Source: an uncultured Bacteroidales bacterium (GTDB lineage: Bacteria; Bacteroidota; Bacteroidia; Bacteroidales; Paludibacteraceae). From it: a stretch of 64,000 nt of DNA. The notes beneath the pieces are model-generated. The model had not been told where the DNA came from and searched no databases. It was given only the letters and a program-made list of their open reading frames with translations. A program made the position numbers and the translations under genes. Position 1 is the stretch's first letter. The number at the start of each line of letters is the position of its first letter. The stretch covers positions 19,696 to 83,695 of the forward strand of contig CAMOUL010000003.1 of assembly GCA_946626605.1 (NCBI GenBank), written 5' to 3'. This document shows positions 1-10,425 of the stretch, piece after piece.

Positions 1-455
1 TTAGCTTCTGGGATGCCGTGGAACGCAAGCGTTATGGTGTACCGGTAGTAATCACTAATCCGCACGAAGTATGGGATAGTTTGCTCAATAAAGATCTTCC
101 GCAAGAGTTCTTGGCTAAACTACCCAACGACAACTGGCAATTTGTCCTATCTATGCAAGAAAACGAAATGTTTGTTTTAGGCATGGAAGATGATGAGTTC
201 AACGATGCTATCGAACGTCAAGACTATGCCACTTTGAATAAGCATTTATACAGAGTGCAAAAGGGTAGTTCTAAATTCTATTGTTTTCGCTATCACACCG
301 AAACTACTGTAGATGATAAATATGAAGGAGTAAAGAACGAACAATGGAGTTTCCAAATTGGGAAAGCATTCCGTGCAAGTAGTTTTGATGGCTTATTCCG
401 GGTATTCCCTCACAAAGTCAAAGTAGATTTGCTCGGTCATATTCATAAAGCATGA
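1..455 (+). CDS. cas9: Cas9, type II-C-like, C-terminal (PAM-interacting) end; the 5' part lies upstream of the window
   Basis: The frame is open from nt 3, so the track's GTG at 18 is internal. The tail WQFVLSMQENEMFVLG...LYRVQK...FRYHTE...KVKVDLLGHI resembles the last strands of II-C Cas9 (compare NmeCas9 FKFSLHPNDLVEV...KYQIDELGKEI, from memory). A 30-nt-spacer array and a tracrRNA anti-repeat lie within 2 kb downstream. Confidence 0.7.
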   Translation, partial: SFWDAVERKRYGVPVVITNPHEVWDSLLNKDLPQEFLAKLPNDNWQFVLSMQENEMFVLGMEDDEFNDAIERQDYATLNKHLYRVQKGSSKFYCFRYHTETTVDDKYEGVKNEQWSFQIGKAFRASSFDGLFRVFPHKVKVDLLGHIHKA

Positions 456-1537
456 TAAACGAACAGCAGCATTCTATGTCAGTTGACCCGAATGACATTC
501 GGGAAAATCAACATAGAGAAAAAGAAATAGATTCTCAGTGGAAATGGCAGGAACCGGGATCTGCGTGGAAAGGAGTCGGTATCTACCATATTACACTGAC
601 GGTGACTTCTCGTCAATCTTTGTTGGGCACACTCGTTATCCCCAATAACGATCCTATGCAAGCGTGGGTAAATCGTACTGATTTAGGAGAGGCAGTTGTT
701 GACTGTTTGTGGACCGTACCGAAGCATCACGCAGAAGTGCGTATCATCAGTTTTGACTTGATGCCAAATCATCTGCATACTATATGGCATGTGACACGAC
801 CGATGTCAATCGGCATCAAATCTGTTGTGCGTGGATTTTGGCAGGCTGTTAAACGGATAGGGCGCGAATACTCTATGTCTGTTTCTCCGAATTCCACGAC
901 CACCACTCCGCCATCTATGTCTATTGTTCCGAATGATATTCGGACTGATAACCATATACCTGACCCTATTTTCACGAAGATGCCATTTATCCGTCCATTG
1001 TCTCGCAAAGAACAATTGGATGCGATGATTCATTATACTTGGCTCAATCCGCAACGCCTTGCCACTATGCACCTTATGCCCGGTTTCTTTCGTGTACAAG
1101 AGAATATTGAAATTGCCGGACGGAAATATTACGCTGTGGGAAATGTGGAACTATTACAAAGATCACAATATACGCCGGTACACGTTCGGAGTACAATGGT
1201 TCAAGAAGCAGAGCATGGCGATAACACGCGCCTCCGTAACTATATGAACAGCTGTGTGCTGGCAGCGAGAAAAGGAACGGTAATGGTTTCGCCATTTATC
1301 AGCAAACAGGAACAATCTGTCATGGAAGAGCTGCTAAAAGAAAAACTGCCGTTCATCTATATCGCCGATAACGGATTTCGAGATTATTATAAACCACCGG
1401 CTGCTTTATTCGATGCAGTCGCGGCAAAAAGGGTCTTGATTTTAAGCCCGTGGGAATATGATCCGAAAAAGAAATATGTGAGTCGTGCAGAATGTGTCGA
1501 AATGAATAAAATGGCAGAAGATATATCTGGATTATAA
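452..1537 (+). CDS. HUH/Y1 tyrosine transposase-family protein (IS200/IS605 TnpA / REP-associated RAYT-like) with an unassigned C-terminal domain of about 150 aa
   Basis: ATG 452 overlaps the cas9 stop (ATGA). It has the strand GIYHITLTVTSRQ, the HUH motif in DLMPNHLHTIWHV, and a Tyr helix DAMIHYTWLNPQRLA. An alternative in-frame ATG is at 476. The gene ends 30 nt before the first partial CRISPR repeat. Confidence 0.7.
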   Translation: MINEQQHSMSVDPNDIRENQHREKEIDSQWKWQEPGSAWKGVGIYHITLTVTSRQSLLGTLVIPNNDPMQAWVNRTDLGEAVVDCLWTVPKHHAEVRIISFDLMPNHLHTIWHVTRPMSIGIKSVVRGFWQAVKRIGREYSMSVSPNSTTTTPPSMSIVPNDIRTDNHIPDPIFTKMPFIRPLSRKEQLDAMIHYTWLNPQRLATMHLMPGFFRVQENIEIAGRKYYAVGNVELLQRSQYTPVHVRSTMVQEAEHGDNTRLRNYMNSCVLAARKGTVMVSPFISKQEQSVMEELLKEKLPFIYIADNGFRDYYKPPAALFDAVAAKRVLILSPWEYDPKKKYVSRAECVEMNKMAEDISGL

Positions 1538-1566
1538 AAGTATCTATTCCTGATAAGGATAACTAA

Positions 1567-2072
1567 TAATCGTACCCTTTAGGGTAAAGAAATACGGACT
1601 AAAACAAGGCTCGCAAATCTGTTCCTCGCATTCGTATGGTTGTGTATGTCATTCAAAAAAGTAAACCAGTAATCGTGCGAAGCTAAGAATACGGACTAAA
1701 ACAAGGCAGACGTTGGGCGTACGTATGCCGGTATAGTTGTGTATGTCATTCAAAAAAGTAAACCAGTAATCGTGCGAAGCTAAGAATACGGACTAAAACA
1801 AGAAGACGAACGCCGCCCTCGTACGTCTCCACGTTGTGTATGTCATTCAAAAAAGTAAACAATACGGACTAAAACAAGGGTTTTGTTGGAGTGTTGGAGT
1901 GTTGGAGTGTTGTGTATGTCATTCAAAAAAGTAAACCAGTAATCGTGCGAAGCTAAGAATACGGACTAAAACAAGGCAGACGTTGGGCGTACGTATGCCG
2001 GTATAGTTGTGTATGTCATTCAAAAAAGTAAACCAGTAATCGTGCGAAGCTAAGAATACGGACTAAAACAAG
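1567..2072 (+). CRISPR. CRISPR array with 5 repeats plus a 5'-truncated leader-side copy and five 30-nt spacers
   Basis: The partial copy is at 1567-1608. Repeats are at 1639-1705, 1736-1802, 1909-1975 and 2006-2072 (67 nt each) and 1833-1878 (46 nt). Spacers are at 1609-1638, 1706-1735, 1803-1832, 1879-1908 and 1976-2005. The consensus is GTTGTGTATGTCATTCAAAAAAGTAAAC[CAGTAATCGTGCGAAGCTAAG]AATACGGACTAAAACAAG. Orientation is set by complementarity to the plus-strand tracrRNA. Confidence 0.9.
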
Positions 2073-2125
2073 AGACTCCGTATAAAACGCTAAAACACAA
2101 CAAGTTAAGTAATGTTTTAGAACGT

Positions 2126-2158
2126 AAAAAAGCAGTACCGGGTGCTGCTTTTGTTTGT
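2126..2158 (+). terminator. Intrinsic terminator after the array, potentially bidirectional
   Basis: The hairpin GCAGTAC-CGG-GTGCTGC has a 7-bp stem with one G-T pair. It is flanked by an A6 run upstream and TTTTGTTTG downstream. Confidence 0.6.
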
Positions 2159-2218
2159 GTCCATTAAGTTGCAAAATTACAGAAAAATGCGGAAATGACA
2201 AAATTTTTTACAGATTTA

Positions 2219-2250
2219 TTTGCATATATCACGAAAAAGTAGTACTTTTG
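2219..2250 (+). promoter_or_regulatory. Bacteroidetes-type promoter for the tracrRNA
   Basis: TTTG is at 2219-2222 and TActTTTG at 2243-2250, with 20-nt spacing. Confidence 0.6.
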
Positions 2251-2253
2251 CAC

Positions 2254-2334
2254 AACTTTTTGAATGACATACACAATAAGGATTATTCCGATGTGTAAAC
2301 ATTTAGGGTGGGGCAGTGCCTCGCCCTTTTTTTG
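2254..2334 (+). ncRNA. tracrRNA
   Basis: ACTTTTTGAATGACATACACAA (2255-2276) is complementary to the 5' 23 nt of the repeat, with a one-nt bulge. It is followed by TAAGG (as in the Nme tracrRNA ...ACAAUAAGG), internal stems, and a terminal hairpin GGGCAG-TGC-CTcGCCC plus T7 ending near 2333. Confidence 0.75.
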
Positions 2335-2360
2335 TGTTTTTGACTAAAAAACCTCCAAAA

Positions 2361-2392
2361 TTTGCATATATCAAATATTTTTTGTACCTTTG
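2361..2392 (+). promoter_or_regulatory. Promoter of the rubredoxin gene
   Basis: TTTG is at 2361-2364 and TAccTTTG at 2385-2392. Confidence 0.55.
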
Positions 2393-2430
2393 TCGCCGAA
2401 AATAACTTATTCACATAAAATTTTATAACT

Positions 2431-2565
2431 ATGGCAAAGTACATTTGTGATGTCTGCGGGTACGAATATGACCCCAGCGAAACAGGAAAAGCGTTTAATG
2501 AACTCCCGGAAGATTGGACGTGCCCAATTTGCGGTGTAGGTAAGGACCAGTTTTCTGAGTTGTAA
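2431..2565 (+). CDS. Rubredoxin (44 aa), absent from the ORF track because it is under 60 aa
   Basis: My own translation is [44 protein letters not shown]. It carries the two CxxCG knuckles and the conserved core typical of rubredoxin. Confidence 0.9.
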
Positions 2566-2617
2566 TCTTGGGTAATAAACGTCAAAACAGGGTAGAGCAC
2601 AACCCCCATAACAATCC

Positions 2618-2641
2618 CCTCGGTGCAAAACCGAGGTTTTT
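2618..2641 (+). terminator. Intrinsic terminator after rubredoxin
   Basis: The hairpin is CCTCGGT-GCAAA-ACCGAGG followed by TTTTT. Confidence 0.7.
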
Positions 2642-2667
2642 ACAGTCCAAAATAATGGTTTAAGGGG

Positions 2668-2711
2668 GTGATTACGGGGCGATTACCGGGTAATTACTGC
2701 GTGATTAGGGA
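2668..2711. repeat. Tandem 11-nt repeat, 4 units
   Basis: The units are GTGATTACGGG GCGATTACCGG GTAATTACTGC GTGATTAGGGA. Confidence 0.8.
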
Positions 2712-2811
2712 AATGTTTATACGACGCCGGGCTAAGAACGCCCAAAAGAACTGCCAAACTGGCAGACTTATAGAAATATTATAAAATGCACTGCAAAAAT
2801 CGTGCCAATAT

Positions 2812-3306
2812 ATGACTCAAATTAAATTTTATGCACCGGTTAAAGAAATGAACGGTGAATTCGAAAAAGGTAGCGGTATTGTCATGAGAAAAAAGAAATA
2901 TCGCGCACCGAATGGAGCCGTCCTCAGAGAAGGTGTTCAGGAATCGTACAAAATCGTTCATCCGCGTGATTACGATAAGAACCCGCCTAAAGGAGCTGAA
3001 CTCGCTAATATTCAGCTGTTTAGCGATTCCAAACGCCAGACTTCCGAGATTATCAATTCCGGCAAACTTACTGACGAGGAACTCGCAGCCATGACACCCG
3101 AGGAGCACCAAAAAACGCTTGAACTGCGCGCAGAACTGGAAAACTTCAGAAATCGTTTCTACGCGCAATTCAAACATCCGGATCCGGAAGCACCGTTCGA
3201 AAAGAAACTAAGACCAGGCGCATCGGTTCTCCGACAAAAACAATATGCTAAACTCGATAACTTCATTCAAGCGATCATTCGTGAGAGACTTCAAAAACAA
3301 CTATAA
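2812..3306 (+). CDS. Hypothetical basic protein (164 aa)
   Basis: This is a long ORF with no competing frame. I do not recognise a family. Confidence 0.55.
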   Translation: MTQIKFYAPVKEMNGEFEKGSGIVMRKKKYRAPNGAVLREGVQESYKIVHPRDYDKNPPKGAELANIQLFSDSKRQTSEIINSGKLTDEELAAMTPEEHQKTLELRAELENFRNRFYAQFKHPDPEAPFEKKLRPGASVLRQKQYAKLDNFIQAIIRERLQKQL

Positions 3307-3541
3307 TAACATCGTTTACGAAAATCACGTATACTACATAAACTACACAAACTACGTTTACATAATTTACTGACATTATGGCAGATTTATTTCTTTTCAT
3401 TATTATGGTATAATTATTGTACTTATACTATAGTACGAAATGTGTGCCTTTTAAACCTAATCGGCATTATGTAAAATAGCATATTTCAAAAACAACCTTA
3501 ACTACGCAAAAAACCCTAACTACGCAAACTACGTTTACAAA

Positions 3542-5929
3542 ATGGAAGATAAGTATCAATCAGAAAACAAGATTTACAAAGTACTCCCTATTAAGAATAC
3601 TGTCATTTTCCCGGGAGTACTCTTACCTATTGCTGTTTCAAAGAAAAGCAGTCTGAAGCTCATCAAAGAAGCTGAAAAAACAGATGAGCCGATAATTCTG
3701 CTGACCCAGAAAGACAACAAGGCCAAAGAACCCACGGAGAAAGACCTGTACCCTCTGGGCACCTTGGCGCATGTGGTACAAGTAATTCCTGTTCCGGAAA
3801 TGGGAAAAGATACGATGATGACCATCTTCGAGGGTCTTCATCGTGTACAGGCCATGGATTTCACAACTGCTGAGAACGGCGGATTAATGGCCAGTGCCGT
3901 TGAAATGGACGAAAATATGCCGCGGAAGGACGATAAACAGTTCAACGCAACCATCGAAACCATTCGTGAGACGGTACAGAAGATATTGCCGAAACGAGAA
4001 GACTCCCCTGCCGGATTGCAGTCTGCGCTTCAATCCTCTTTGAAAAATCTTACTTCCTCGCCTTCTTTCTTGAATTATGTGTGCTCCATCTATATTATGC
4101 CGACGGAGACCAAGCAAGGATTGCTGGCTATTCACGACTTAACTGAACGTGCTAATGCCCTGCTCCGTATTCTCGAGAAAGACCTGGAGGAACTGAATAT
4201 CAAGGAAGATATTCGTCGTCGTACCGTCGAGAAGATGGATAAACAGCAGCGTGAATACTTCCTGCAACAAGAGTTGGAGACCATCAAAAATGACCTTGGC
4301 GACACGGATTCATCGGCACAAAAAGTCAGTGAACTGCGTGAGCGAGGCAAAGAGATGAAATGGTCTGCAGAGGTGGCTGAACGCTTTGAGAAAGAGTTAG
4401 CCCGCCTCGAACACATGCATGTGCATGCTCCGGACTACTCCACTCAACTCGACTATCTGGAGTTCATGTTGGACCTCCCTTGGGGTGTTTATTCCGAAGA
4501 TAATTATGACATGGCGCACGCCCAAGAAGTGCTGAATCGCGATCACTTCGGATTGGATAAAGTGAAGGAAAGAATTGTCGAATACCTGGCCGTACAACGT
4601 CAATTGGCGCTTCGTAGCAAAAAAGAGAAAGAAAATCACCCGGTGAAATCGCCGATTTTATGTCTCTATGGCCCTCCCGGAGTCGGAAAAACAAGCCTCG
4701 GAAAGAGTGTGGCTGAAGCCCTCGGACGAAAGTATGCACGCGTCTCTTTAGGTGGTCTGCACGATGAAGCGGAAGTGCGCGGCCATCGTCGTACCTACAT
4801 AGGTGCCCTGCCCGGTAGAATCATAGACGGCATCAAGAAATGCGGCACATCGAACCCCGTGTTTGTGCTCGATGAAATCGACAAGATCGGCGCCGACTAC
4901 AAAGGTGACCCGACCGCAGCGCTGCTCGAGGTGCTCGATCCGGAACAGAACAATGCCTTCCACGACAACTATCTGGATGTGGATTACGATCTGAGCAAAG
5001 TGCTTTTCATCGCTACCGCCAATAGTCTGGAGACCGTTCCCCGACCCCTACTCGACCGAATGGAGTTGATCGAGATGACCGGATATCTGCAGGAAGAGAA
5101 AGAAGAGATCGCCAAACGCCATCTGATTCCGAAAGAACTGGCCAACCATGGTCTGAAAGCCAGCCAACTGAAGTTCAAGAAGGAGATTTTGGCGCATATC
5201 ATCGATGATTACACACGTGAGTCCGGTGTGCGCAGTCTGGAACGTCAGATTGCGACGATCTGTCGGAAGATAGATACCAAACTGGCTTTAGGAGAAGAAT
5301 ATAACGTTTCTATCACCCTTGATGACCTGCGTACCTACCTCGGGCAAGCACGTTATAGCCGCGATAGCTGGGAGACAAACAAATACGTCGGTGTGGTAAC
5401 AGGCCTGGCGTGGACACAAGTCGGAGGCGAGATATTGTTTATCGAGACGAGTCTGAGCCAGAGCAAAACTCCGACACTTACCCTCACGGGTAACTTAGGC
5501 GATGTGATGAAAGAATCCGCCACTTTGGCACTCGGATATGTCAAGGCCCATGTTAAAGAACTCGGCATCAAACCCGATGTATTCGAGAAAACAGCCGTAC
5601 ATATCCATGTGCCCGAAGGAGCGATTCCGAAGGACGGACCTTCTGCCGGCATCACGATGACAACGGCTTTAGTAAGTGCCTTCACCAAACGCCTCGTTAA
5701 ACCCCGCATCGCCATGACCGGAGAGATGACTTTACGAGGTAAGGTATTACCTATTGGCGGAGTAAAAGAAAAACTGCTCGCAGCTAAACGAGCAGGTATC
5801 ACGGATATCATCCTCTGCGAGGACAACAGAAAAGATGTCGCTGAGATCAACGACATCTACCTGAAAGGGCTGAAACTGCACTTCGTGCACGATATCAGCG
5901 AGGTGATCGAAAAAGCGCTTACAAAATAA
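3542..5929 (+). CDS. lon: ATP-dependent Lon protease
   Basis: It has the LON N-domain, Walker A GPPGVGKTS, and the proteolytic motif DGPSAG. Confidence 0.95.
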   Translation: MEDKYQSENKIYKVLPIKNTVIFPGVLLPIAVSKKSSLKLIKEAEKTDEPIILLTQKDNKAKEPTEKDLYPLGTLAHVVQVIPVPEMGKDTMMTIFEGLHRVQAMDFTTAENGGLMASAVEMDENMPRKDDKQFNATIETIRETVQKILPKREDSPAGLQSALQSSLKNLTSSPSFLNYVCSIYIMPTETKQGLLAIHDLTERANALLRILEKDLEELNIKEDIRRRTVEKMDKQQREYFLQQELETIKNDLGDTDSSAQKVSELRERGKEMKWSAEVAERFEKELARLEHMHVHAPDYSTQLDYLEFMLDLPWGVYSEDNYDMAHAQEVLNRDHFGLDKVKERIVEYLAVQRQLALRSKKEKENHPVKSPILCLYGPPGVGKTSLGKSVAEALGRKYARVSLGGLHDEAEVRGHRRTYIGALPGRIIDGIKKCGTSNPVFVLDEIDKIGADYKGDPTAALLEVLDPEQNNAFHDNYLDVDYDLSKVLFIATANSLETVPRPLLDRMELIEMTGYLQEEKEEIAKRHLIPKELANHGLKASQLKFKKEILAHIIDDYTRESGVRSLERQIATICRKIDTKLALGEEYNVSITLDDLRTYLGQARYSRDSWETNKYVGVVTGLAWTQVGGEILFIETSLSQSKTPTLTLTGNLGDVMKESATLALGYVKAHVKELGIKPDVFEKTAVHIHVPEGAIPKDGPSAGITMTTALVSAFTKRLVKPRIAMTGEMTLRGKVLPIGGVKEKLLAAKRAGITDIILCEDNRKDVAEINDIYLKGLKLHFVHDISEVIEKALTK

Positions 5930-5938
5930 GCGCTTTTT
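5913..5938 (+). terminator. Intrinsic terminator overlapping the lon stop codon
   Basis: The hairpin AAGCGCTTA-CAAAA-TAAGCGCTT has a 9-bp stem and is followed by TTT. Confidence 0.6.
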
Positions 5939-5955
5939 CATGTATGATGTTGGGT

Positions 5956-6351
5956 TTATGATTTTTGATTTATAAACTCTTCGTACGTACCATCCGTATA
6001 GTACACTACTATATTCTTAATCTGTTTTGAAGGAGCTGCAACTACTTGCGGCTCTTCTTTTTGTGCCGTACGCACTGTTTTTTCCTTCGGATCCGGTGGT
6101 AATATATCAAATAAACCGGCATCTTTACCGGGTACAGAACGCCACATATCACCTCTTCCGGCAATTAACCACTCCGGATTCAAGGTAGGATAGCGCTCCA
6201 TAATGCGTTTCATCACTTCTAAACTGGGATTATTACGTCCAGCCATCATATTACTGATAGTACCGGGTTGCACATGAATCTCTGCAGCAAACTGCCTTGC
6301 TGTTAGTCCTAAGGCATCTTTTACCTTCTCTATACGTTCTCTCTCATTCAT
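5956..6351 (-). CDS. XRE-family helix-turn-helix transcriptional regulator
   Basis: The N-terminus LGLTARQFAAEIHVQPGTISNMMAGRNNPS is a typical HTH_3 motif. Confidence 0.8.
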   Translation of the reverse strand: MNERERIEKVKDALGLTARQFAAEIHVQPGTISNMMAGRNNPSLEVMKRIMERYPTLNPEWLIAGRGDMWRSVPGKDAGLFDILPPDPKEKTVRTAQKEEPQVVAAPSKQIKNIVVYYTDGTYEEFINQKS

Positions 6352-6510
6352 AAAATAATAATTTATTATTTAAATGGGGCCCCCAGAGTAAACTAAGCCT
6401 AAGGCTGTTTGCTATGGGGAGAGCGTAGCGTAAGGCGGAGTGTTTAAGGAGCTACGTGGTAGCGACTCACACGAGCCTTAACGTAAGCGAGTGCAAAATT
6501 ACAAAAAAAA

Positions 6511-6590
6511 TGTGAAATACACAAATGTTTGCACAATTATTTTTAAAAATATTTTCACATTTGTGAATACATGAAATTTGCAATTGTGAA
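6511..6590. promoter_or_regulatory. Cluster of TGTGAA/TTCACA boxes (candidate operator sites)
   Basis: TGTGAA occurs at 6511, 6562 and 6585, and TTCACA at 6554. The pair TTCACAttTGTGAA forms a palindrome at 6554-6567. A minus-strand TAatTTTG box near 6492-6499 probably drives the XRE gene. Confidence 0.35.
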
Positions 6591-7061
6591 ATTTATTTAT
6601 CAGCAACAAGCCGTGGAACATTTTTACAAAGTCATCTCCCTCATCCCTGTCTATGTTCAACAAACTATTCCAATAGTCATACTTATTTTACTTTGTGTAG
6701 TGCGCATATATGCCTTATAATAAGCAAGTTATAGTAATTATTAAACGTATTTTAACTTTTTTATACCTCTATTTCTTCATATACCGTGATATCTTCATAG
6801 TATTACTTTAATTAAATACGTAAAATGCTCATATACAGATAGTTATATTATCACTAATTGTGTAATTTACTTGATTTTGAAGGCATGCACGATTGTTAAG
6901 ATTCGTGCATTTCTGCAAAATGGATTCTACTCTACTCTCTTGGACTCTTAAATTAAAAGTTTGAGGCCTGGCGATTCTTTTATGCGGTTTGTGAACGTTT
7001 GGTTTGTGAGCAAACAATACATAATTTGTGTTCACACTTATTCTGCTAACATTTTTGATTT

Positions 7062-7097
7062 TTTGCTTGCATAATTCACAAAAATATACTACCTTTG
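7062..7097 (+). promoter_or_regulatory. Promoter-like element with no convincing downstream gene
   Basis: TTTG/CTTG lies at 7062-7069 and TAccTTTG at 7090-7097. The next clear start (ispE, 7381) has its own TAccTTTG at 7352-7359. Confidence 0.4.
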
Positions 7098-7380
7098 CAC
7101 TCGATTTGAAATGAACAATTCAGTAACTATTGCCATTAAACTTTACCTGTTATGAAAATGAATGTTTATCGTATCAAACAGCGCACGCAGGATTTCCTGC
7201 TTCGATTGTTTGTTGAGGGCGTACCAGATGCTACTCCATCCGATTCGTATTATTACACCTGTTCCCGATGTGGGACCTTCAGGAAACGTCATTAATTCGA
7301 ATTATTTCTCAGTATTTGCTGTAAAGGCTTGCATATTTCCTAAAAATATTGTACCTTTGCAGCAAATTTTTTATTATACG

Positions 7381-8262
7381 ATGCTACTCTATCCGAATTG
7401 CAAGGTAAATATGGGTTTGCGTGTTGTACGTAAACGACCGGACGGATACCACGATCTGGAGACAATATTTGTGCCTGTTTATGGTTTACATGATGAACTC
7501 GAGGTCGTTCCTGCCCCCTCATTTGCCTTTACGCATGAAGGAATAACGGTGGATTGTGCTCCGGAGGACAATCTTATTATCAAGTGTTACCGTCACTTGG
7601 CCGCTAAATACCCGCAGATAGGTCCTGTTTCTATCCGTTTTAAGAAGAATATACCCTTTGGCGCAGGATTAGGCGGAGGAAGTAGCGACGCAGCTCACAT
7701 GGCTATTGCCTTAAATGAGTTGTTTGACTTAGGATTAAGTAAAAAGCAGTTAGCCGCAGAGGTGGCTTCATTAGGAGCTGATTGCCCGTTTTTTATCTAT
7801 AATGTACCCTGTTTTGCCGAAGGCATCGGAGATATCCTCACTCCTATCGACTTGGATCTCAAAGGCGTACGTATCGTGATGATCAAGCCGGACGAGGGGG
7901 TATCTACCCGAGAAGCTTATTCGGGAATGAGACCGCGTCCGGAGGTTGCTCAAAGTATAAAGACCGCTATCGCTCAAAGTAAAAAGAAAAGTCTTTTGTC
8001 TTTTGACTTTCTACTTTCTACTCTTTTCATCAACGATTTCGAGGCAACGGTTTTCCCTCATCATCCTATTATTGCTTACATAAAAAAGCGTCTGCTGGAC
8101 GCAGGCGCTTTCTATGCTTCCATGAGTGGAAGTGGTTCAACTGTTTTCGGGTTTTTTAAGAATGATGCGGAAAGTGGTACCAACACCCACTTGGCTGCTC
8201 TTAAGCACGAGTTTGCCTCCATGGTACTGCTCGATGATACGTTTGGCGAGTGGAAGGCCTAA
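7381..8262 (+). CDS. ispE: 4-diphosphocytidyl-2-C-methyl-D-erythritol kinase
   Basis: The N-terminus is LYPNCKVNMGLRVVRKRPDGYHDLETIF, with GHMP motifs GAGLGGGSSDAA and MSGSGSTVFG. I chose the start at the ATG right after the TAccTTTG box, not the track's 7162. Confidence 0.9.
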   Translation: MLLYPNCKVNMGLRVVRKRPDGYHDLETIFVPVYGLHDELEVVPAPSFAFTHEGITVDCAPEDNLIIKCYRHLAAKYPQIGPVSIRFKKNIPFGAGLGGGSSDAAHMAIALNELFDLGLSKKQLAAEVASLGADCPFFIYNVPCFAEGIGDILTPIDLDLKGVRIVMIKPDEGVSTREAYSGMRPRPEVAQSIKTAIAQSKKKSLLSFDFLLSTLFINDFEATVFPHHPIIAYIKKRLLDAGAFYASMSGSGSTVFGFFKNDAESGTNTHLAALKHEFASMVLLDDTFGEWKA

Positions 8263-9246
8263 ACCCCATCCTCTTTCCTTGGAAGTGAAACCCGGCTCAA
8301 AGATGCGACGCTGGGTTTTGTTGTCAATTCCCTTGCCTGTATCCGAAACATCGATCATCACATCGTGCTCGTTCTCATGAAGCTGGATGGTAATTGCGCC
8401 CTCTCCGGAGATAGCATCTACCGCATTCTTGAGCAGATTTTCAACCACCCATTGAAGAAGCGGAGCATTCAGCATCACCGTACGATTGACCTCATTCAGA
8501 CAACTATCATCAATCGTAATCCTATTAGATATACGCGCGCGCATATAAGTCACAGCGTTTTGTACAACCGGAATCAAGTTCTCCGCCTGCAAAGTAGGTT
8601 CTGAACCTATCTTCTGGAAGCGATCAGCAATCATCTGCAAACGGTCTATATCCCGCTTCATCTGCGGTACATATTCGTCTTCCGGATATTTCTCTGCCAA
8701 TATCTGTTGCCAAGCGTTGAGGGAAGAGATAGGAGTGCCAAGTTGATGAGCCGTCTCTTTACTCAACCCCACCCATAAGCGGTTCTCTTCACTTCGTTGA
8801 CCGGTCAGCATCGTGATGACTGCGATGGCAATAAAGATAAAGATCAGCGCAAACTGCGCATAAGGAACATACCGTAGGCGGGTCAGAAGATTACTGTCAT
8901 CCCAGTAGATATACTGCGTCGTAGTATCGTCAATCTTCAGTTCTATCGGGCCGTGATCGCCTGGTTTACCTGCAGAAGTGACGTTACGGCTGGAGAGCAC
9001 GTTCCCTTCTTTATCGCAGATATACACAGGAATCGTTGTGTTCTTCTCTATGATAGACATGAAGAAATCGATGTCCGCATCCTCATCTGCAAGGATGAGT
9101 TGTTGGGTTGCTTCTGCCCAAATCGCCATGTTCTTCTGCTCTTCTTCCTGTAGCGAACGAGCCAGATTATTGGTAAATAGTACGGAAATAGCCACGATTA
9201 ACATGGCTATTACCAATACGATTGTTGCAATGCGTCTGTTAGACAT
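8137..9246 (-). CDS. Sensor histidine kinase (two transmembrane segments, HisKA, HATPase_c)
   Basis: It has the H-box ETAHQLGTPISSL, the N-box LLKNAVDA, and G-boxes DTGKGI and GWGLGLPLAKRII. Confidence 0.85.
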   Translation of the reverse strand: MSNRRIATIVLVIAMLIVAISVLFTNNLARSLQEEEQKNMAIWAEATQQLILADEDADIDFFMSIIEKNTTIPVYICDKEGNVLSSRNVTSAGKPGDHGPIELKIDDTTTQYIYWDDSNLLTRLRYVPYAQFALIFIFIAIAVITMLTGQRSEENRLWVGLSKETAHQLGTPISSLNAWQQILAEKYPEDEYVPQMKRDIDRLQMIADRFQKIGSEPTLQAENLIPVVQNAVTYMRARISNRITIDDSCLNEVNRTVMLNAPLLQWVVENLLKNAVDAISGEGAITIQLHENEHDVMIDVSDTGKGIDNKTQRRIFEPGFTSKERGWGLGLPLAKRIIEQYHGGKLVLKSSQVGVGTTFRIILKKPENS

Positions 9247-9249
9247 ATA

Positions 9250-10425
9250 TTATCCGAGCATCGTGAGCAACACACCTGCTGCGACAGCAGAACCGATCAC
9301 ACCGGCTACATTCGGGCCCATAGCATGCATGAGAAGAAAGTTAGACGGGTTCTCTTCCTGACCAACGGTCTGCGATACACGTGCAGCCATCGGCACAGCC
9401 GATACTCCGGCAGAACCAATCAGCGGGTTGATCTTCTCCTTGAGGAACAGGTTCATGAACTTAGCTAACAGTACACCTCCTGCGCTACCCAAACCGAAGG
9501 CCACAATTCCCATCGCGAGAATCATCAATGTCTGCCAGTTCAGGAAGCTTCCGGCAGTAGCCGTAGCACCGACAGAGAGGCCGAGGAAAATGACTACGAT
9601 GTTCATCAGTTCGTTCTGGGCTGTCTTGCTAAGACGATCCACTACTCCACACTCTTTCATCAAGTTTCCGAGCATCAGACAGCCGATCAGCGGTGCTGCA
9701 TCCGGAAGGATGAGGGCTACGATAGCCGTGATGATGATCGGGAAGACGATCTTCTCGGTCTTGGAAACCGGACGGAGCTGGCCCATCTTGATAGCGCGTT
9801 CCTTTTTAGTCGTGAGCGCGCGCATGATTGGCGGCTGGATAACCGGAACGAGAGCCATGTAACTATAGGCGGCGATAGCGATCGGTCCCAGGAGATGCGG
9901 CGCCAGTTTGGAAGTCAGGAAGATAGACGTCGGGCCATCTGCACCACCGATGATACCGATGGAACCGGCTTCTGCGGGAGTAAAGCCCATCGCGTAAGCG
10001 CAGAGGAAGGTAACGAAGATACCTATTTGCGCGGCAGCACCGAGAAGGAGAGACTTGGGATTGGCAATCAGCGGACCGAAATCCGTCATAGCACCTACTC
10101 CGATGAAGATCAAACACGGGTAAACGCCTGCCTTAACGCCTATATAGAGCACATCCAGCAGACCGGCGCCCTTGAGGATAGCCCCGTAAGAATGGTATGC
10201 CGGACTCGACGGGTCGAGGAAGGCGGTCCATAACTCATCATGGAACATGCCTGCGCCCGGGAGGTTGGTAAGCAACATACCGAACGCGATCGGGAGCAAC
10301 AAGAGCGGCTCGTATTTCTTATGAATGGCAAGGTACAGCAGGACGAACGACACCAGCAGCATGATACCCTGTTGCCACGTCATCTGCATGAATCCCATGC
10401 TTGTAAAAAATTCAAGTATTTCCAT
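9250..10425 (-). CDS. mmdB: Na+-translocating decarboxylase beta subunit (methylmalonyl-CoA/oxaloacetate decarboxylase)
   Basis: It is a polytopic membrane protein with the OadB-family look. It sits in an operon with carboxyltransferase, biotin-carrier and OadG-like genes. Confidence 0.85.

What the first reader, a model, noticed from the sequence alone, without database searches (positions are those of the whole stretch)
1567..2072. Dimorphic CRISPR repeats: a clean 21-nt hairpin-bearing block is present in 4 of 5 repeats, with a different hairpin in the leader-side copy
Four repeats are 67 nt and one (1833-1878) is 46 nt. They are otherwise identical. The only difference is the block CAGTAATCGTGCGAAGCTAAG, inserted between ...GTAAAC and AATACGG..., with unambiguous borders and no flanking duplication. 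Bacteroidetes II-C repeats are usually around 47 nt, so the 46-nt form looks canonical.

The block core GCGAAGC is the classic hyperstable GC-GAA-GC mini-hairpin. The 5'-truncated leader-side copy (1567-1608) keeps the flanks TAATCGT...AAAG but has ACCCTTTAGGGT at that position. This is a different sequence that also forms a hairpin (ACCC-TTTA-GGGT). The structure is conserved while the sequence is not.

The block lies 3' of the 23 nt that pair with the tracrRNA. By analogy with other type II systems it should not be part of the mature crRNA. This points to a DNA-level or pre-crRNA role. It could be a recognition hairpin for the adjacent HUH enzyme, although that is speculation.
Basis: partly seen in the sequence, partly recalled or inferred. 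Interest (0 to 1): 0.7.

Follow-up and report, generated by a model that had tools for sequence, protein, structure and literature searches.

The report
Hairpin insert in old CRISPR repeats
Some repeats of this Cas9 CRISPR array carry a 21-base insert, a copy of a small hairpin module also found elsewhere in related rumen Bacteroidales genomes, and it looks like a tolerated passenger inherited from older repeats, not a site for the neighbouring HUH enzyme.

Summary
Repeats R1, R2, R4 and R5 are 67 nt and R3 is 46 nt. They differ only by CAGTAATCGTGCGAAGCTAAG. The 5'-truncated copy R0 carries a related insert with an ACCC-TTTA-GGGT hairpin. Independent assemblies show the same array, so it is not an artefact.

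The same dimorphism occurs in other rumen Paludibacteraceae/Bacteroidales type II-C arrays with different spacers. Those loci have Cas1 and Cas2 and no HUH gene. Most HUH-bearing loci have only 46-47-nt repeats. The HUH link is therefore not supported.

R0 is not leader-side. In type II-C the first repeat is the oldest "extra" repeat, and spacers enter at the last repeat. Long repeats cluster at that old end.

The insert lies outside the tracrRNA-pairing region. It accumulates substitutions faster than the rest of the repeat.

It belongs to a dispersed motif, TAATCGT-NCCC-loop-GGGN'-TAAGAA. This motif is also present or absent in cas2 5' leaders and other intergenic sites.

Best reading: a small hairpin module inserted into the dispensable part of an ancestral repeat. 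Repeat duplication then propagated it and recombination shuffled it. The window array has lost cas1 and cas2 and is frozen. A role as an RNA leader element is not excluded.

The parts
3..455 (+). 3' end of cas9 (last 150 codons of a 1153-aa Cas9)
   Evidence: The full gene is seen in L001 at 6543-10004 with HNH and RuvC_III Pfam hits. tblastn is 100% over Cas9 residues 1004-1153.
452..1537 (+). 361-aa Y1-HUH + DprA-like protein. It overlaps the cas9 stop (ATGA) and occupies the position where cas1 lies in related loci.
   Evidence: H107xH109 and Y195-x3-NPQR are invariant in 27 homologues. The AF2 model has pLDDT 78. Foldseek matches IS608/ISDra2 TnpA and RAYT 4ER8 for the N-terminal domain and DprA/ShosA for the C-terminal domain. 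In L028 the order is Cas9-Cas1-HUH-array. L014 keeps a cas1 remnant.
1564..1608 (+). R0, the oldest 'extra' repeat. It lacks the tracrRNA-pairing 5' half. It consists of the beta form of the insert (1564-1589, hairpin ACCC-TTTA-GGGT) plus the 3' repeat half (1590-1608).
   Evidence: Direct reading. It is the best hit of covariance model R1 at 47.1 bits. The same organisation is seen in R0 of L008, L009, L017 and L039.
1609..1638 (+). Spacer 1, a genuine phage-derived spacer
   Evidence: It matches viral contig IMGVR_UViG_3300028048_003198 at 29 of 30 positions.
1639..1705 (+). Repeat 1, 67 nt, with the alpha insert at 1667-1687
1736..1802 (+). Repeat 2, 67 nt, with the alpha insert at 1764-1784
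1833..1878 (+). Repeat 3, 46 nt, the canonical short form
1909..1975 (+). Repeat 4, 67 nt, with the alpha insert at 1937-1957
2006..2072 (+). Repeat 5, 67 nt, with the alpha insert at 2034-2054. This is the last repeat, where acquisition would occur.
   Evidence: That type II-C spacers enter at the last repeat is from PMC12080349.
2073..2152 (+). Conserved leader-like sequence after the last repeat, ending in a bidirectional terminator hairpin (2128-2152)
   Evidence: It is conserved after the last repeat in L006, L009, L010, L026, L027, L039 and L041. The terminator scan is.
2153..2180 (-). Remnant of cas2: the -7 box TAATTTTG, ATG and two codons, fused to the terminator. The rest of cas2 is deleted.
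   Evidence: Comparison with the cas2 upstream regions of 15 loci. tblastn with Cas1 and Cas2 finds nothing in the 64-kb window.
2218..2335 (+). tracrRNA gene: Bacteroidetes-type promoter (TTTG ... TACTTTTG, 2218-2250), anti-repeat 2257-2276, terminator 2305-2327
   Evidence: The 20-nt anti-repeat is 100% complementary to all five repeats. Nearly the same tracrRNA is present in 13 related loci.

Best explanation
The 21-nt block is a copy of a small hairpin module with the consensus TAATCGT-N-CCC-loop-GGG-N'-TAAGAA. It became inserted, together with a short duplication of the target AAGTAAAC, into the part of an ancestral type II-C repeat that Cas9 does not use. That part lies between the about 24-nt tracrRNA-pairing segment and the 18-nt spacer-proximal end.

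Both ends of the repeat and the tracrRNA-pairing segment stay intact. I infer that long repeats still yield working crRNAs and can still be duplicated by Cas1-Cas2. The insert therefore behaves as a repeat-length allele. It is copied each time the last repeat is duplicated during spacer acquisition. Recombination between repeats shuffles or erases it. It drifts faster than the rest of the repeat.

Two alleles exist. Alpha (21 nt) has the minimal GC-GAA-GC stem. Beta (26 nt) has an NCCC-TTTA-GGGN' stem. The oldest repeat, R0, keeps beta in the window.

The window locus has lost cas1 and cas2, and a Y1-HUH/DprA-like gene sits in the position of cas1. Its array is a frozen relic that ends in long repeats.

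Shown here: the anatomy, the distribution across loci, the clustering at the old end, the dispersed motif, and the relaxed constraint on the block.

Inferred: the direction of the event (insertion followed by loss), tolerance by Cas1-Cas2, and the absence of a function.
For: (1) The identical alpha block at the identical site occurs in independent arrays with unrelated spacers. In L010 it is in R0-R3 and R6-R7 of 23 repeats. In L041 it is in R0-R5 of 22. In L035 it is in R0 only. The beta block occurs in L017 (R0), L039 (R0 and R1) and L008/L009.

(2) Units with long repeats are 97 nt, that is 67 + 30, so spacers of normal length were acquired next to long repeats.

(3) Long repeats cluster at the cas1-proximal end (stratified permutation, 0 of 200,000). 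This is the oldest end in type II-C (PMC12080349). L026 shows the same run-wise inheritance for a 1-nt length variant.

(4) The block starts at repeat position 29, outside the anti-repeat duplex. No sigma-70 promoter or TTTG/TAnnTTTG promoter (direct reading) is present in the repeats.

(5) In 14 internal alpha-long repeats all 3 substitutions fall in the block: 3 of 294 nt against 0 of 630 nt in the rest of the repeat (Fisher p=0.03). There are none in 1,620 nt of short repeats. One of the three breaks the mini-hairpin.

(6) The dispersed motif is found in the cas2 5' leader of L015 and L016, degenerate in L039, and absent from 11 other cas2 leaders. It is also found at L015 (- strand) 4001, L026 4040, L055 4475 and L008 1478, and at L001 6434-6465 upstream of cas9 in the window's own species. 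About 0.001 such sites are expected by chance in the sequence held.

(7) R0 of L026 reads AAGTAAAC-CAGAAATCATGCG-AAGTAAAC, a perfect flanking duplication.

(8) Recombination between repeats is directly visible. In L003 spacer 2 is unique, whereas in the window it has been overwritten by spacer 5.
Against: - The borders have no microhomology. Precise loss of the block cannot therefore be simple slippage. Yet short repeats with family-specific flanks (GTAAAC|AATACGG and GTAAC|AAATACGG) coexist with the matching long forms. This needs either repeated precise events or extensive allele exchange.
- R0 carries a block in eight arrays. The motif elsewhere tends to sit in 5' leaders in the sense orientation. 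Both facts hint at a function at the start of the array.
- The relaxed-constraint test rests on only three substitutions.
- Tolerance of 67-72-bp repeats by Cas1-Cas2 is inferred and not shown.
Confidence: 0.55

Rival explanations
1. The module is a functional RNA leader element. Candidate roles are anti-termination, insulation, processing or stabilisation, comparable to boxA/nut sites or 5' stabilising hairpins. It would have been captured in the first repeat or repeats so that the untranslated array, which has no promoter of its own, is transcribed or processed properly after read-through from the cas operon. Internal copies would be by-products of repeat duplication.
For: - R0 carries the module in 8 arrays of this repeat subfamily.
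- Long repeats lie at the transcription-proximal end.
- No promoter is recognisable in the repeats or directly upstream of them.
- The motif occurs in the sense orientation in cas2 5' leaders, 16-24 nt after the -7 box. It also lies upstream of genes in L008, L055 and a phage contig.
- Loops include UUCG-like, GAAA and GCAA, which are typical of RNA hairpins.
- The closing pair covaries.
- BoxA-dependent anti-termination of CRISPR arrays is known (Stringer et al. 2020, own knowledge; not read here).
Against: - Arrays of sister subfamilies, and many cas2 leaders, lack the module.
- The alpha form has only a 2-bp stem and no predicted fold.
- The block mutates faster than the rest of the repeat.
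- The motif has no similarity to boxA.
- Two of the non-CRISPR copies are not upstream of a gene.
Confidence: 0.22
2. The block is a REP- or PATE-like miniature element, or a recognition hairpin, that is cut and moved seamlessly by the Y1-HUH/DprA-like protein encoded next to the array.
For: - The ORF has a TnpA/RAYT-like fold with intact HUH and Tyr motifs.
- The borders are seamless and lack microhomology, as in peel-and-paste transposition.
- Presence and absence are mosaic within arrays.
- Both borders follow TAA(A)C- or TAAG-like tetranucleotides.
- There is presence/absence polymorphism at a second site, the cas2 leader.
Against: - Block-bearing arrays L010, L035, L039 and L041 (Cas9-Cas1-array) and L017 (with a further 151-aa ORF between cas1 and R0) have no HUH gene in the 5-10 kb held.
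- HUH loci L006, L013, L014, L015 and L028 have no block in their repeats.
- HUH homologues also sit far from any CRISPR array (L054, L055).
- Apart from the array, the 64-kb window has no copy scoring 25 bits or more, unlike REP families.
- The HUH gene carries different palindromes of its own (CCCGAATGACATTCGGG).
- All alpha copies share the same degenerate right flank, which indicates copying from one ancestor and not repeated insertion.
Confidence: 0.07
3. The block is the scar of a transposable element that once sat in the repeat: a target-site duplication plus a short palindromic remnant left by nearly precise excision.
For: - There is a perfect 8-nt direct repeat, AAGTAAAC, around a 13-nt core in R0 of L026.
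- The beta form has a palindromic core.
- The region between cas1 and R0 has repeatedly received other DNA: the HUH gene, a 292-aa ORF in L020 and a 151-aa ORF in L017.
Against: - The same flanks-plus-hairpin motif at unrelated sites is not expected for a random scar.
- The other insertions lie about 10 nt or more upstream of the block site.
- No candidate parent element was seen.
Confidence: 0.1
4. The dimorphism is an assembly or sequencing artefact at repeat 3.
For: None, beyond the general difficulty of assembling repeats.
Against: The same structure is found in three independent assemblies of this species. The same dimorphism is found in four other genomes or metagenomes.
Confidence: 0.01

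Closest known systems
Degenerate 'extra' (first, oldest) repeat of type II-C arrays (Feussner et al. 2025, PMC12080349)
   Same: R0 is the first transcribed repeat. It has lost the tracrRNA-pairing 5' part, so no extraneous crRNA can form. Acquisition is at the opposite end.
   Different: R0, and several following repeats, additionally carry a 21-26-nt internal insert. That paper describes substitutions, upstream terminators and guide-sequestering helices. It does not describe insertions inside repeats.
Run-wise inheritance of repeat variants through duplication of the acquisition-end repeat (PMC12839519 reports that II-C has most mutations in transcription-proximal repeats)
   Same: Long and short forms occur in runs. 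The old end differs from the new end. L026 shows the same pattern for a 1-nt variant.
   Different: The variant here is a 21-26-nt structured insertion, 52 nt when doubled in L009, and not a point mutation. Arrays are partly mosaic: long-long-long-short-short-long-long then short in L010, and long-long-short-long-long in the window.
REP elements and their RAYT (Y1-HUH) transposases; IS200/IS605 miniature elements
   Same: A short hairpin with conserved single-stranded flanks is dispersed at several intergenic sites. A Y1-HUH protein is encoded next to the window array.
   Different: There is no co-occurrence with the HUH gene. Copy number is low. There is a single hairpin. The stems are largely the same (CCC/GGG) while loops differ. 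A flanking duplication is seen in one old copy, which HUH transposition does not produce.
Repeat-embedded promoters of Neisseria and Campylobacter type II-C arrays
   Same: The element lies in the spacer-proximal part of the repeat, upstream of each spacer, in the sense orientation.
   Different: No sigma-70 or Bacteroidetes promoter consensus is present. Most repeats lack the element.
boxA/boxB (nut-like) leader elements and boxA-dependent anti-termination of CRISPR arrays
   Same: A conserved single-stranded flank is followed by a small tetraloop hairpin. It is located promoter-proximally or at the start of the array.
   Different: There is no sequence similarity to boxA. A function has not been tested. 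The element is absent from most related arrays.

Membership tests
Type II-C CRISPR-Cas9 array | cas9 adjacent to the array | tested here: met
   A 1153-aa Cas9 with HNH and RuvC_III domains ends at window position 455.
Type II-C CRISPR-Cas9 array | tracrRNA with an anti-repeat complementary to the 5' part of the repeat | tested here: met
   2257-2276 is 100% complementary to positions 2-21 of all five repeats. It has a promoter and a terminator. It is conserved in 13 loci.
Type II-C CRISPR-Cas9 array | Regular repeat-spacer units with spacers derived from mobile elements | tested here: met
   All spacers are 30 nt. S1 matches a viral contig at 29 of 30 positions. 24-mers from S2 and S3 gave no exact viral hit.
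Type II-C CRISPR-Cas9 array | cas1 and cas2 adaptation genes in the locus | tested here: not met
   There is no Cas1 or Cas2 similarity in the 64-kb window, only a cas2 promoter/ATG remnant. Relatives L010, L017, L020, L023, L026, L028, L039 and L041 have both genes. The window locus is a degraded member.
Type II-C 'extra repeat' neutralised by mutation | The first transcribed repeat is altered in its tracrRNA-pairing part while the last repeat is intact | tested here: met
   R0 lacks the first 28 nt of the repeat. R5 is complete and abuts the conserved leader-like sequence.
REP/RAYT system | The hairpin element co-occurs with, and typically flanks, the Y1-HUH gene | tested here: not met
   The block is present without an HUH gene in L010, L017, L035, L039 and L041. 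An HUH gene is present without the block in L006, L013, L014, L015, L025, L028 and L054. Only 5-10 kb per locus was available.
REP/RAYT system | Many dispersed copies per genome | tested here: not met
   The covariance model finds no copy of 25 bits or more in the 64-kb window outside the array. There is one further copy upstream of cas9, in L001.
REP/RAYT system | The protein has a Y1-HUH fold with HUH and catalytic Tyr motifs | tested here: met
   The NCBIfam RAYT model matches only weakly (E=0.0014, below the cut-off).
IS200/IS605-derived miniature element | Distinct left- and right-end hairpins, and insertion 3' of a fixed tetranucleotide without target duplication | tested here: not met
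   There is a single hairpin. R0 of L026 shows an 8-nt flanking duplication. The insertion contexts differ between sites.
Repeat-embedded promoter (Neisseria-type II-C) | A -10-like element at the 3' end of each repeat | tested here: not met
   The sigma-70 scan finds none in 1400-2450 on the + strand. The + strand of the repeats contains no TTTG or TAnnTTTG (direct reading).
boxA/nut-like anti-termination element | A boxA-like sequence bound by NusB/E, and an effect on Rho termination | not testable with these tools
   There is no resemblance to the E. coli boxA consensus by eye. A functional test is needed.

The most novel reading that the evidence does not exclude
TAATCGT-NCCC-loop-GGGN'-TAAGAA is an undescribed Bacteroidales leader or mobile hairpin module. 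Placed inside CRISPR repeats, it would give a promoter-less type II-C array a repeat-embedded expression or processing signal. That would be a functional analogue of the repeat-embedded promoters of Neisseria and Campylobacter. Its presence in the cas2 leader would couple adaptation-gene and crRNA expression.
Probability: 0.12. Interest if true: 0.7.

Novelty: new variant of a known kind. Interest (0 to 1): 0.42.

Why it matters
CRISPR repeats are normally uniform in length, and integration is thought to depend on repeat length or on motifs at the repeat ends. Here natural arrays have 67-, 72- and even 98-nt versions of a 46-nt repeat, and the 67- and 72-nt versions are flanked by unique spacers of normal length. 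This suggests that the middle of a type II-C repeat can take 21-26 extra base pairs without blocking acquisition or Cas9 guide formation.

That is useful to know for integration mechanisms and for engineering arrays. It is also a caution for CRISPR-finding software, which will split or mis-call such arrays.

The insert also exposes a small dispersed hairpin motif in rumen Bacteroidales whose role is unknown.

Tried and rejected
- Pfam and NCBIfam on the Cas9 C-terminal fragment and on the 361-aa ORF gave nothing usable, only a weak RAYT hit. Sequence search of the ORF against PDB found nothing.
- Rfam on 1-8000 found no relevant family.
- Megablast of 1-2400 against plasmids found no match.
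- 24-mers from S2 and S3, and the 21-nt block itself, had no exact match in viral contigs.
- Most hits of the metagenome pattern scan were chance matches in unrelated marine or other contigs (L029-L034, L036-L038, L040, L043-L047, L049, L050, L052, L053).
- The viral scan for the motif gave about as many hits as chance predicts. Only one phage contig with three identical intergenic copies looks real.
- No spacers are shared between arrays of different species, so array polarity could not be derived from spacer sharing. I took it from the literature and from repeat and leader anatomy.
- A Cas1-Cas2 ruler cutting 46 bp from the leader would leave truncated repeats, which are not seen. Rejected.
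- Slippage between microhomologies cannot produce the observed short form from the present alpha sequence. Rejected as the cause of loss.
- 21 bp equals two helical turns, but this idea is not supported because the beta insert is 26 bp.
- The block pairing with the 5' half of the repeat to mask it from the tracrRNA: no such fold is predicted.
- Literature searches for a Cas9-linked HUH/DprA protein found nothing specific. The Stringer et al. anti-termination paper is not in the held library.
Full report
**Observation**

The region 1564-2072 is a five-spacer CRISPR array on the + strand. The canonical repeat is GTTGTGTATGTCATTCAAAAAAGTAAAC|AATACGGACTAAAACAAG, 46 nt, and is found at R3 (1833-1878). 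R1, R2, R4 and R5 are 67 nt. They differ from R3 only by CAGTAATCGTGCGAAGCTAAG inserted at the bar.

This 21-mer occurs exactly four times in the window. With up to three mismatches it occurs nowhere else, and none is expected by chance. Upstream of spacer 1 lies a 5'-truncated copy, R0 (1564-1608). It has the 3' repeat half preceded by TAATAATCGT-ACCCTTTAGGGT-AAAG.

All spacers are 30 nt. Spacer 1 matches a viral contig at 29 of 30 positions, so these are genuine CRISPR units.

The structure is not an assembly artefact. Two ENA assemblies carry the identical 895-bp region. A JGI assembly (L003) has the same long-long-short-long-long geometry. L003 also shows that the exact 165-bp duplicate in the window (R1-S2-R2 = R4-S5-R5) is secondary. 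In L003 spacer 2 is a different, unique sequence. In the window strain it was therefore overwritten by spacer 5 through recombination between identical long repeats.

**Locus context**

- The window starts in the last 150 codons of a 1153-aa Cas9.
- The tracrRNA gene lies downstream on the same strand. It has a Bacteroidetes-type promoter at 2218-2250, an anti-repeat at 2257-2276 that is 100% complementary to repeat positions 2-21, and a terminator at 2305-2327.
- crRNAs are therefore read on the + strand. The insert, which starts at repeat position 29, lies outside the crRNA:tracrRNA duplex.
- Related loci from rumen Paludibacteraceae/Bacteroidales MAGs show the intact architecture: Cas9, Cas1, R0 overlapping the cas1 stop codon, the array, a conserved sequence of about 80-100 nt with a terminator, cas2 on the opposite strand, and the tracrRNA.
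- The window has neither cas1 nor cas2 anywhere in its 64 kb. Of cas2, only the promoter, the ATG and two codons remain, at 2153-2180 on the minus strand.
- Where cas1 should be there is a 361-aa ORF (452-1537).

**Which end of the array is which**

In type II-C systems spacers are acquired at the last repeat. The first repeat is the oldest, spacer-less 'extra' repeat and is frequently mutated in its first 15 nt (PMC12080349; also PMC12839519). The anatomy here agrees. R0 has lost its tracrRNA-pairing half in every locus. The last repeat is always intact and abuts a sequence conserved between species. R0 is therefore the trailer-end relic and not a 'leader-side copy'.

**Distribution of the insert**

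I examined 20 arrays of this repeat family. Thirteen have only 45-48-nt repeats and no insert.

The identical 21-nt 'alpha' insert at the identical site occurs in these arrays:
- L010: R0-R3 and R6-R7 of 23 repeats.
- L041: R0-R5 of 22 repeats. The same array appears in a second sample, L042/L048.
- L035: R0 only.

A 26-nt 'beta' insert, TAAYAATCGT-NCCCTTTAGGGN'-WAAG, occurs at the equivalent site in these arrays:
- L017: R0.
- L039: R0 and R1.
- L008/L009: R0, plus a 98-nt R1 with two modules in tandem.
- The window: R0.

R0 of L026 carries a diverged alpha-like copy.

Spacers next to long repeats are unique and 30 nt long. Under the standard model, long repeats were therefore duplicated during real acquisition events.

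Long repeats cluster at the old end (0 of 200,000 stratified permutations reach the observed rank sum). L026 shows the same run-wise inheritance for a 1-nt length variant. In the window lineage the acquisition-end repeats are long, and the array is identical or nearly so across samples. This is as expected once cas1 and cas2 are gone.

**The HUH hypothesis**

The 361-aa protein does have a Y1-HUH fold.
- H107xH109 and Y195-x3-NPQR are invariant in 27 homologues.
- The AF2 model has pLDDT 78.
- Foldseek matches IS608/ISDra2 TnpA and the RAYT structure 4ER8 for the N-terminal domain, and DprA/ShosA for the C-terminal domain.

The insert does not follow this gene.
- L041, the closest intact relative (Cas9 90% identical), and L010, L035 and L039 have Cas9-Cas1-array and no HUH gene in the DNA held. 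L017 is the same apart from a 151-aa ORF between cas1 and R0.
- HUH-bearing loci L006, L013, L014, L015 and L028 have no insert.
- Homologues of the protein also lie far from any CRISPR array.
- The gene is a secondary arrival. L028 has Cas9-Cas1-HUH-array. L014 keeps only the first and last codons of cas1. In the window the ORF starts at what was the cas1 start codon.

**What the insert is**

Its hairpin is weak in the alpha form. GC-GAA-GC gives no predicted fold as RNA or DNA. It is broken in L010 R7 (GCAAAGC) and in L026 R0 (GCGAAGT). d(GCGAAGC) is a stable DNA mini-hairpin experimentally, which is my own knowledge and is not captured by the folding parameters.

The beta hairpin is a real 4-5-bp stem (-5.8 kcal/mol, z = -1.7).

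The flanks TAATCGT and TAAGAA are shared by alpha and beta. The same flanks-plus-hairpin motif turns up elsewhere:
- In the 5' leader of cas2 in L015 and L016, degenerate in L039, and absent from 11 other cas2 leaders. This is a second presence/absence polymorphism.
- At L015 (- strand) 4001, L026 4040, L055 4475 and L008 1478.
- Upstream of the cas9 promoter in the window's own species, at L001 6434-6465.
- Three times in one phage contig. That collection-wide scan alone is within chance expectation.

In the roughly 0.3 Mb of Bacteroidales sequence held, about 0.001 such sites are expected by chance.

In an alignment of nine variants the closing pair covaries (G-C 5, A-U 2, U-A 2), while CCC/GGG is invariant.

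R0 of L026 reads AAGTAAAC-CAGAAATCATGCG-AAGTAAAC. The 3' part of the alpha block (AAGCTAAG) is therefore a decayed duplicate of the target. The 'GCGAAGC' lies at the junction of a 13-nt core and that duplicate.

**Constraint**

In 14 internal alpha-long repeats from three independent arrays all three substitutions fall within the block: 3 of 294 nt against 0 of 630 nt in the canonical parts (Fisher p=0.03). None occurs in 1,620 nt of short repeats. This fits a passenger under relaxed constraint, although the numbers are small.

**Interpretation**

A small hairpin module was inserted into the Cas9-dispensable middle of an ancestral repeat of this sub-lineage. It persisted as a repeat-length allele in two forms. 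It was propagated by repeat duplication at the cas2-proximal end. It has been replaced by the short allele at the active end of all arrays that still have Cas1 and Cas2. R0 and the oldest repeats preserve it.

Mosaic orders (L010 and the window), the doubled module in L009 and the overwritten spacer in the window show that recombination between repeats reshuffles the alleles.

What remains unexplained is how short repeats with exactly matching family-specific flanks arise, given that the borders lack microhomology. The frequent presence of the module in R0 and in 5' leaders keeps open a role at the RNA level, such as anti-termination, processing or stability. I rate this at about 0.2. The HUH-substrate idea I rate at about 0.07.

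**Novelty**

I found no description of structured insertions inside type II-C repeats in the papers I searched and read. The phenomenon is nevertheless a variant of known repeat polymorphism and of the known degeneration of the extra repeat. It is not a new kind of system.

Noticed in passing
window 452-1537 (+): A 361-aa protein with an N-terminal Y1-HUH (TnpA/RAYT-like) domain and a C-terminal DprA/ShosA-like domain. It belongs to a family with more than 3000 members, mostly unannotated. It sits between cas9 or cas1 and the array in several type II-C loci and at unrelated sites in other genomes. In the window it occupies the place of cas1 and starts at the former cas1 start codon.
   Followed up: partly
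window 473-519 and 914-946 (inside the HUH ORF): Nested DNA palindromes (TCTATGT ... CCCGAATGACATTCGGG ... ACATAGA) encode a repeated SMSVxPNDIR peptide motif. The copy number of this segment varies between homologues (alignment A1), and a similar palindrome lies upstream of the homologue in L054. These may be the protein's own cognate hairpins.
   Followed up: partly
window 2153-2180 (-): Remnant of cas2: the -7 box TAATTTTG, ATG GAC AC, then directly the array terminator. The rest of cas2 is deleted. L006 and L007 keep a 35-codon cas2 fragment.
   Followed up: yes
L001 6543-10004 versus L010 3227-7801 (-): Two very different Cas9 proteins (1153 aa and about 1500-1530 aa, 23% identity over the alignable part) are combined with practically the same tracrRNA, repeat, Cas1 (about 90% identical) and Cas2 (over 90% identical). 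The effector gene has been swapped between otherwise homologous loci.
   Followed up: partly
window 1706-1735 and 1976-2005; L003 3304-3333: Spacers 2 and 5 are identical in the window as part of a 165-bp exact duplicate. In L003 spacer 2 is a different sequence. This is a gene conversion between repeats in an array that lacks cas1 and cas2.
   Followed up: yes
window 1879-1908: Spacer 4 is low-complexity (TGTTGGAG x 3.6). It is present in all assemblies of this array. Its origin is unknown.
   Followed up: no
L015 1809-1845 (-), L016 6167-6200 (+), L039 2789-2822 (-), L001 6434-6465 (-), L055 4469-4503, L008 1472-1509, L026 4034-4074: A dispersed motif, TAATCGT-NCCC-loop-GGGN'-TAAGAA. It often lies in 5' leaders in the sense orientation, for example 6 nt before the cas2 start codon, and is present or absent between orthologous sites. 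Several copies lie in tracts of short tandem repeats, which makes target-duplication calls uncertain.
   Followed up: partly
window 2654-2710: A tract of imperfect tandem repeats of about 10 nt containing GATTAC (GGTGATTACGGGGCGATTACCGGGTAATTACTGCGTGATTAGGG), in the intergenic region after the rubredoxin gene. Similar short tandem tracts flank hairpins in L008, L015, L024, L025 and L054.
   Followed up: no
L017 5060-5180 (- strand) and the equivalent region of L039: Between cas1 and R0 there is a strong Bacteroidetes promoter on the opposite strand (TTTGCATATATCAATTTTTTGTTGTACTTTTG), followed by a GC-rich, possibly structured transcript that is antisense to a 151-aa ORF call. This may be a small RNA gene inserted at the cas1/R0 junction.
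   Followed up: no
L025 2397-3500: A decayed locus: a solitary 5' half of a repeat, then an HUH homologue, then the terminator stub of a tracrRNA. There is no cas9 and no array.
   Followed up: partly
L020 2726-3604: A 292-aa ORF is inserted between cas1 and the 3' half of R0, the same hotspot as the HUH gene. Its identity was not determined.
   Followed up: no
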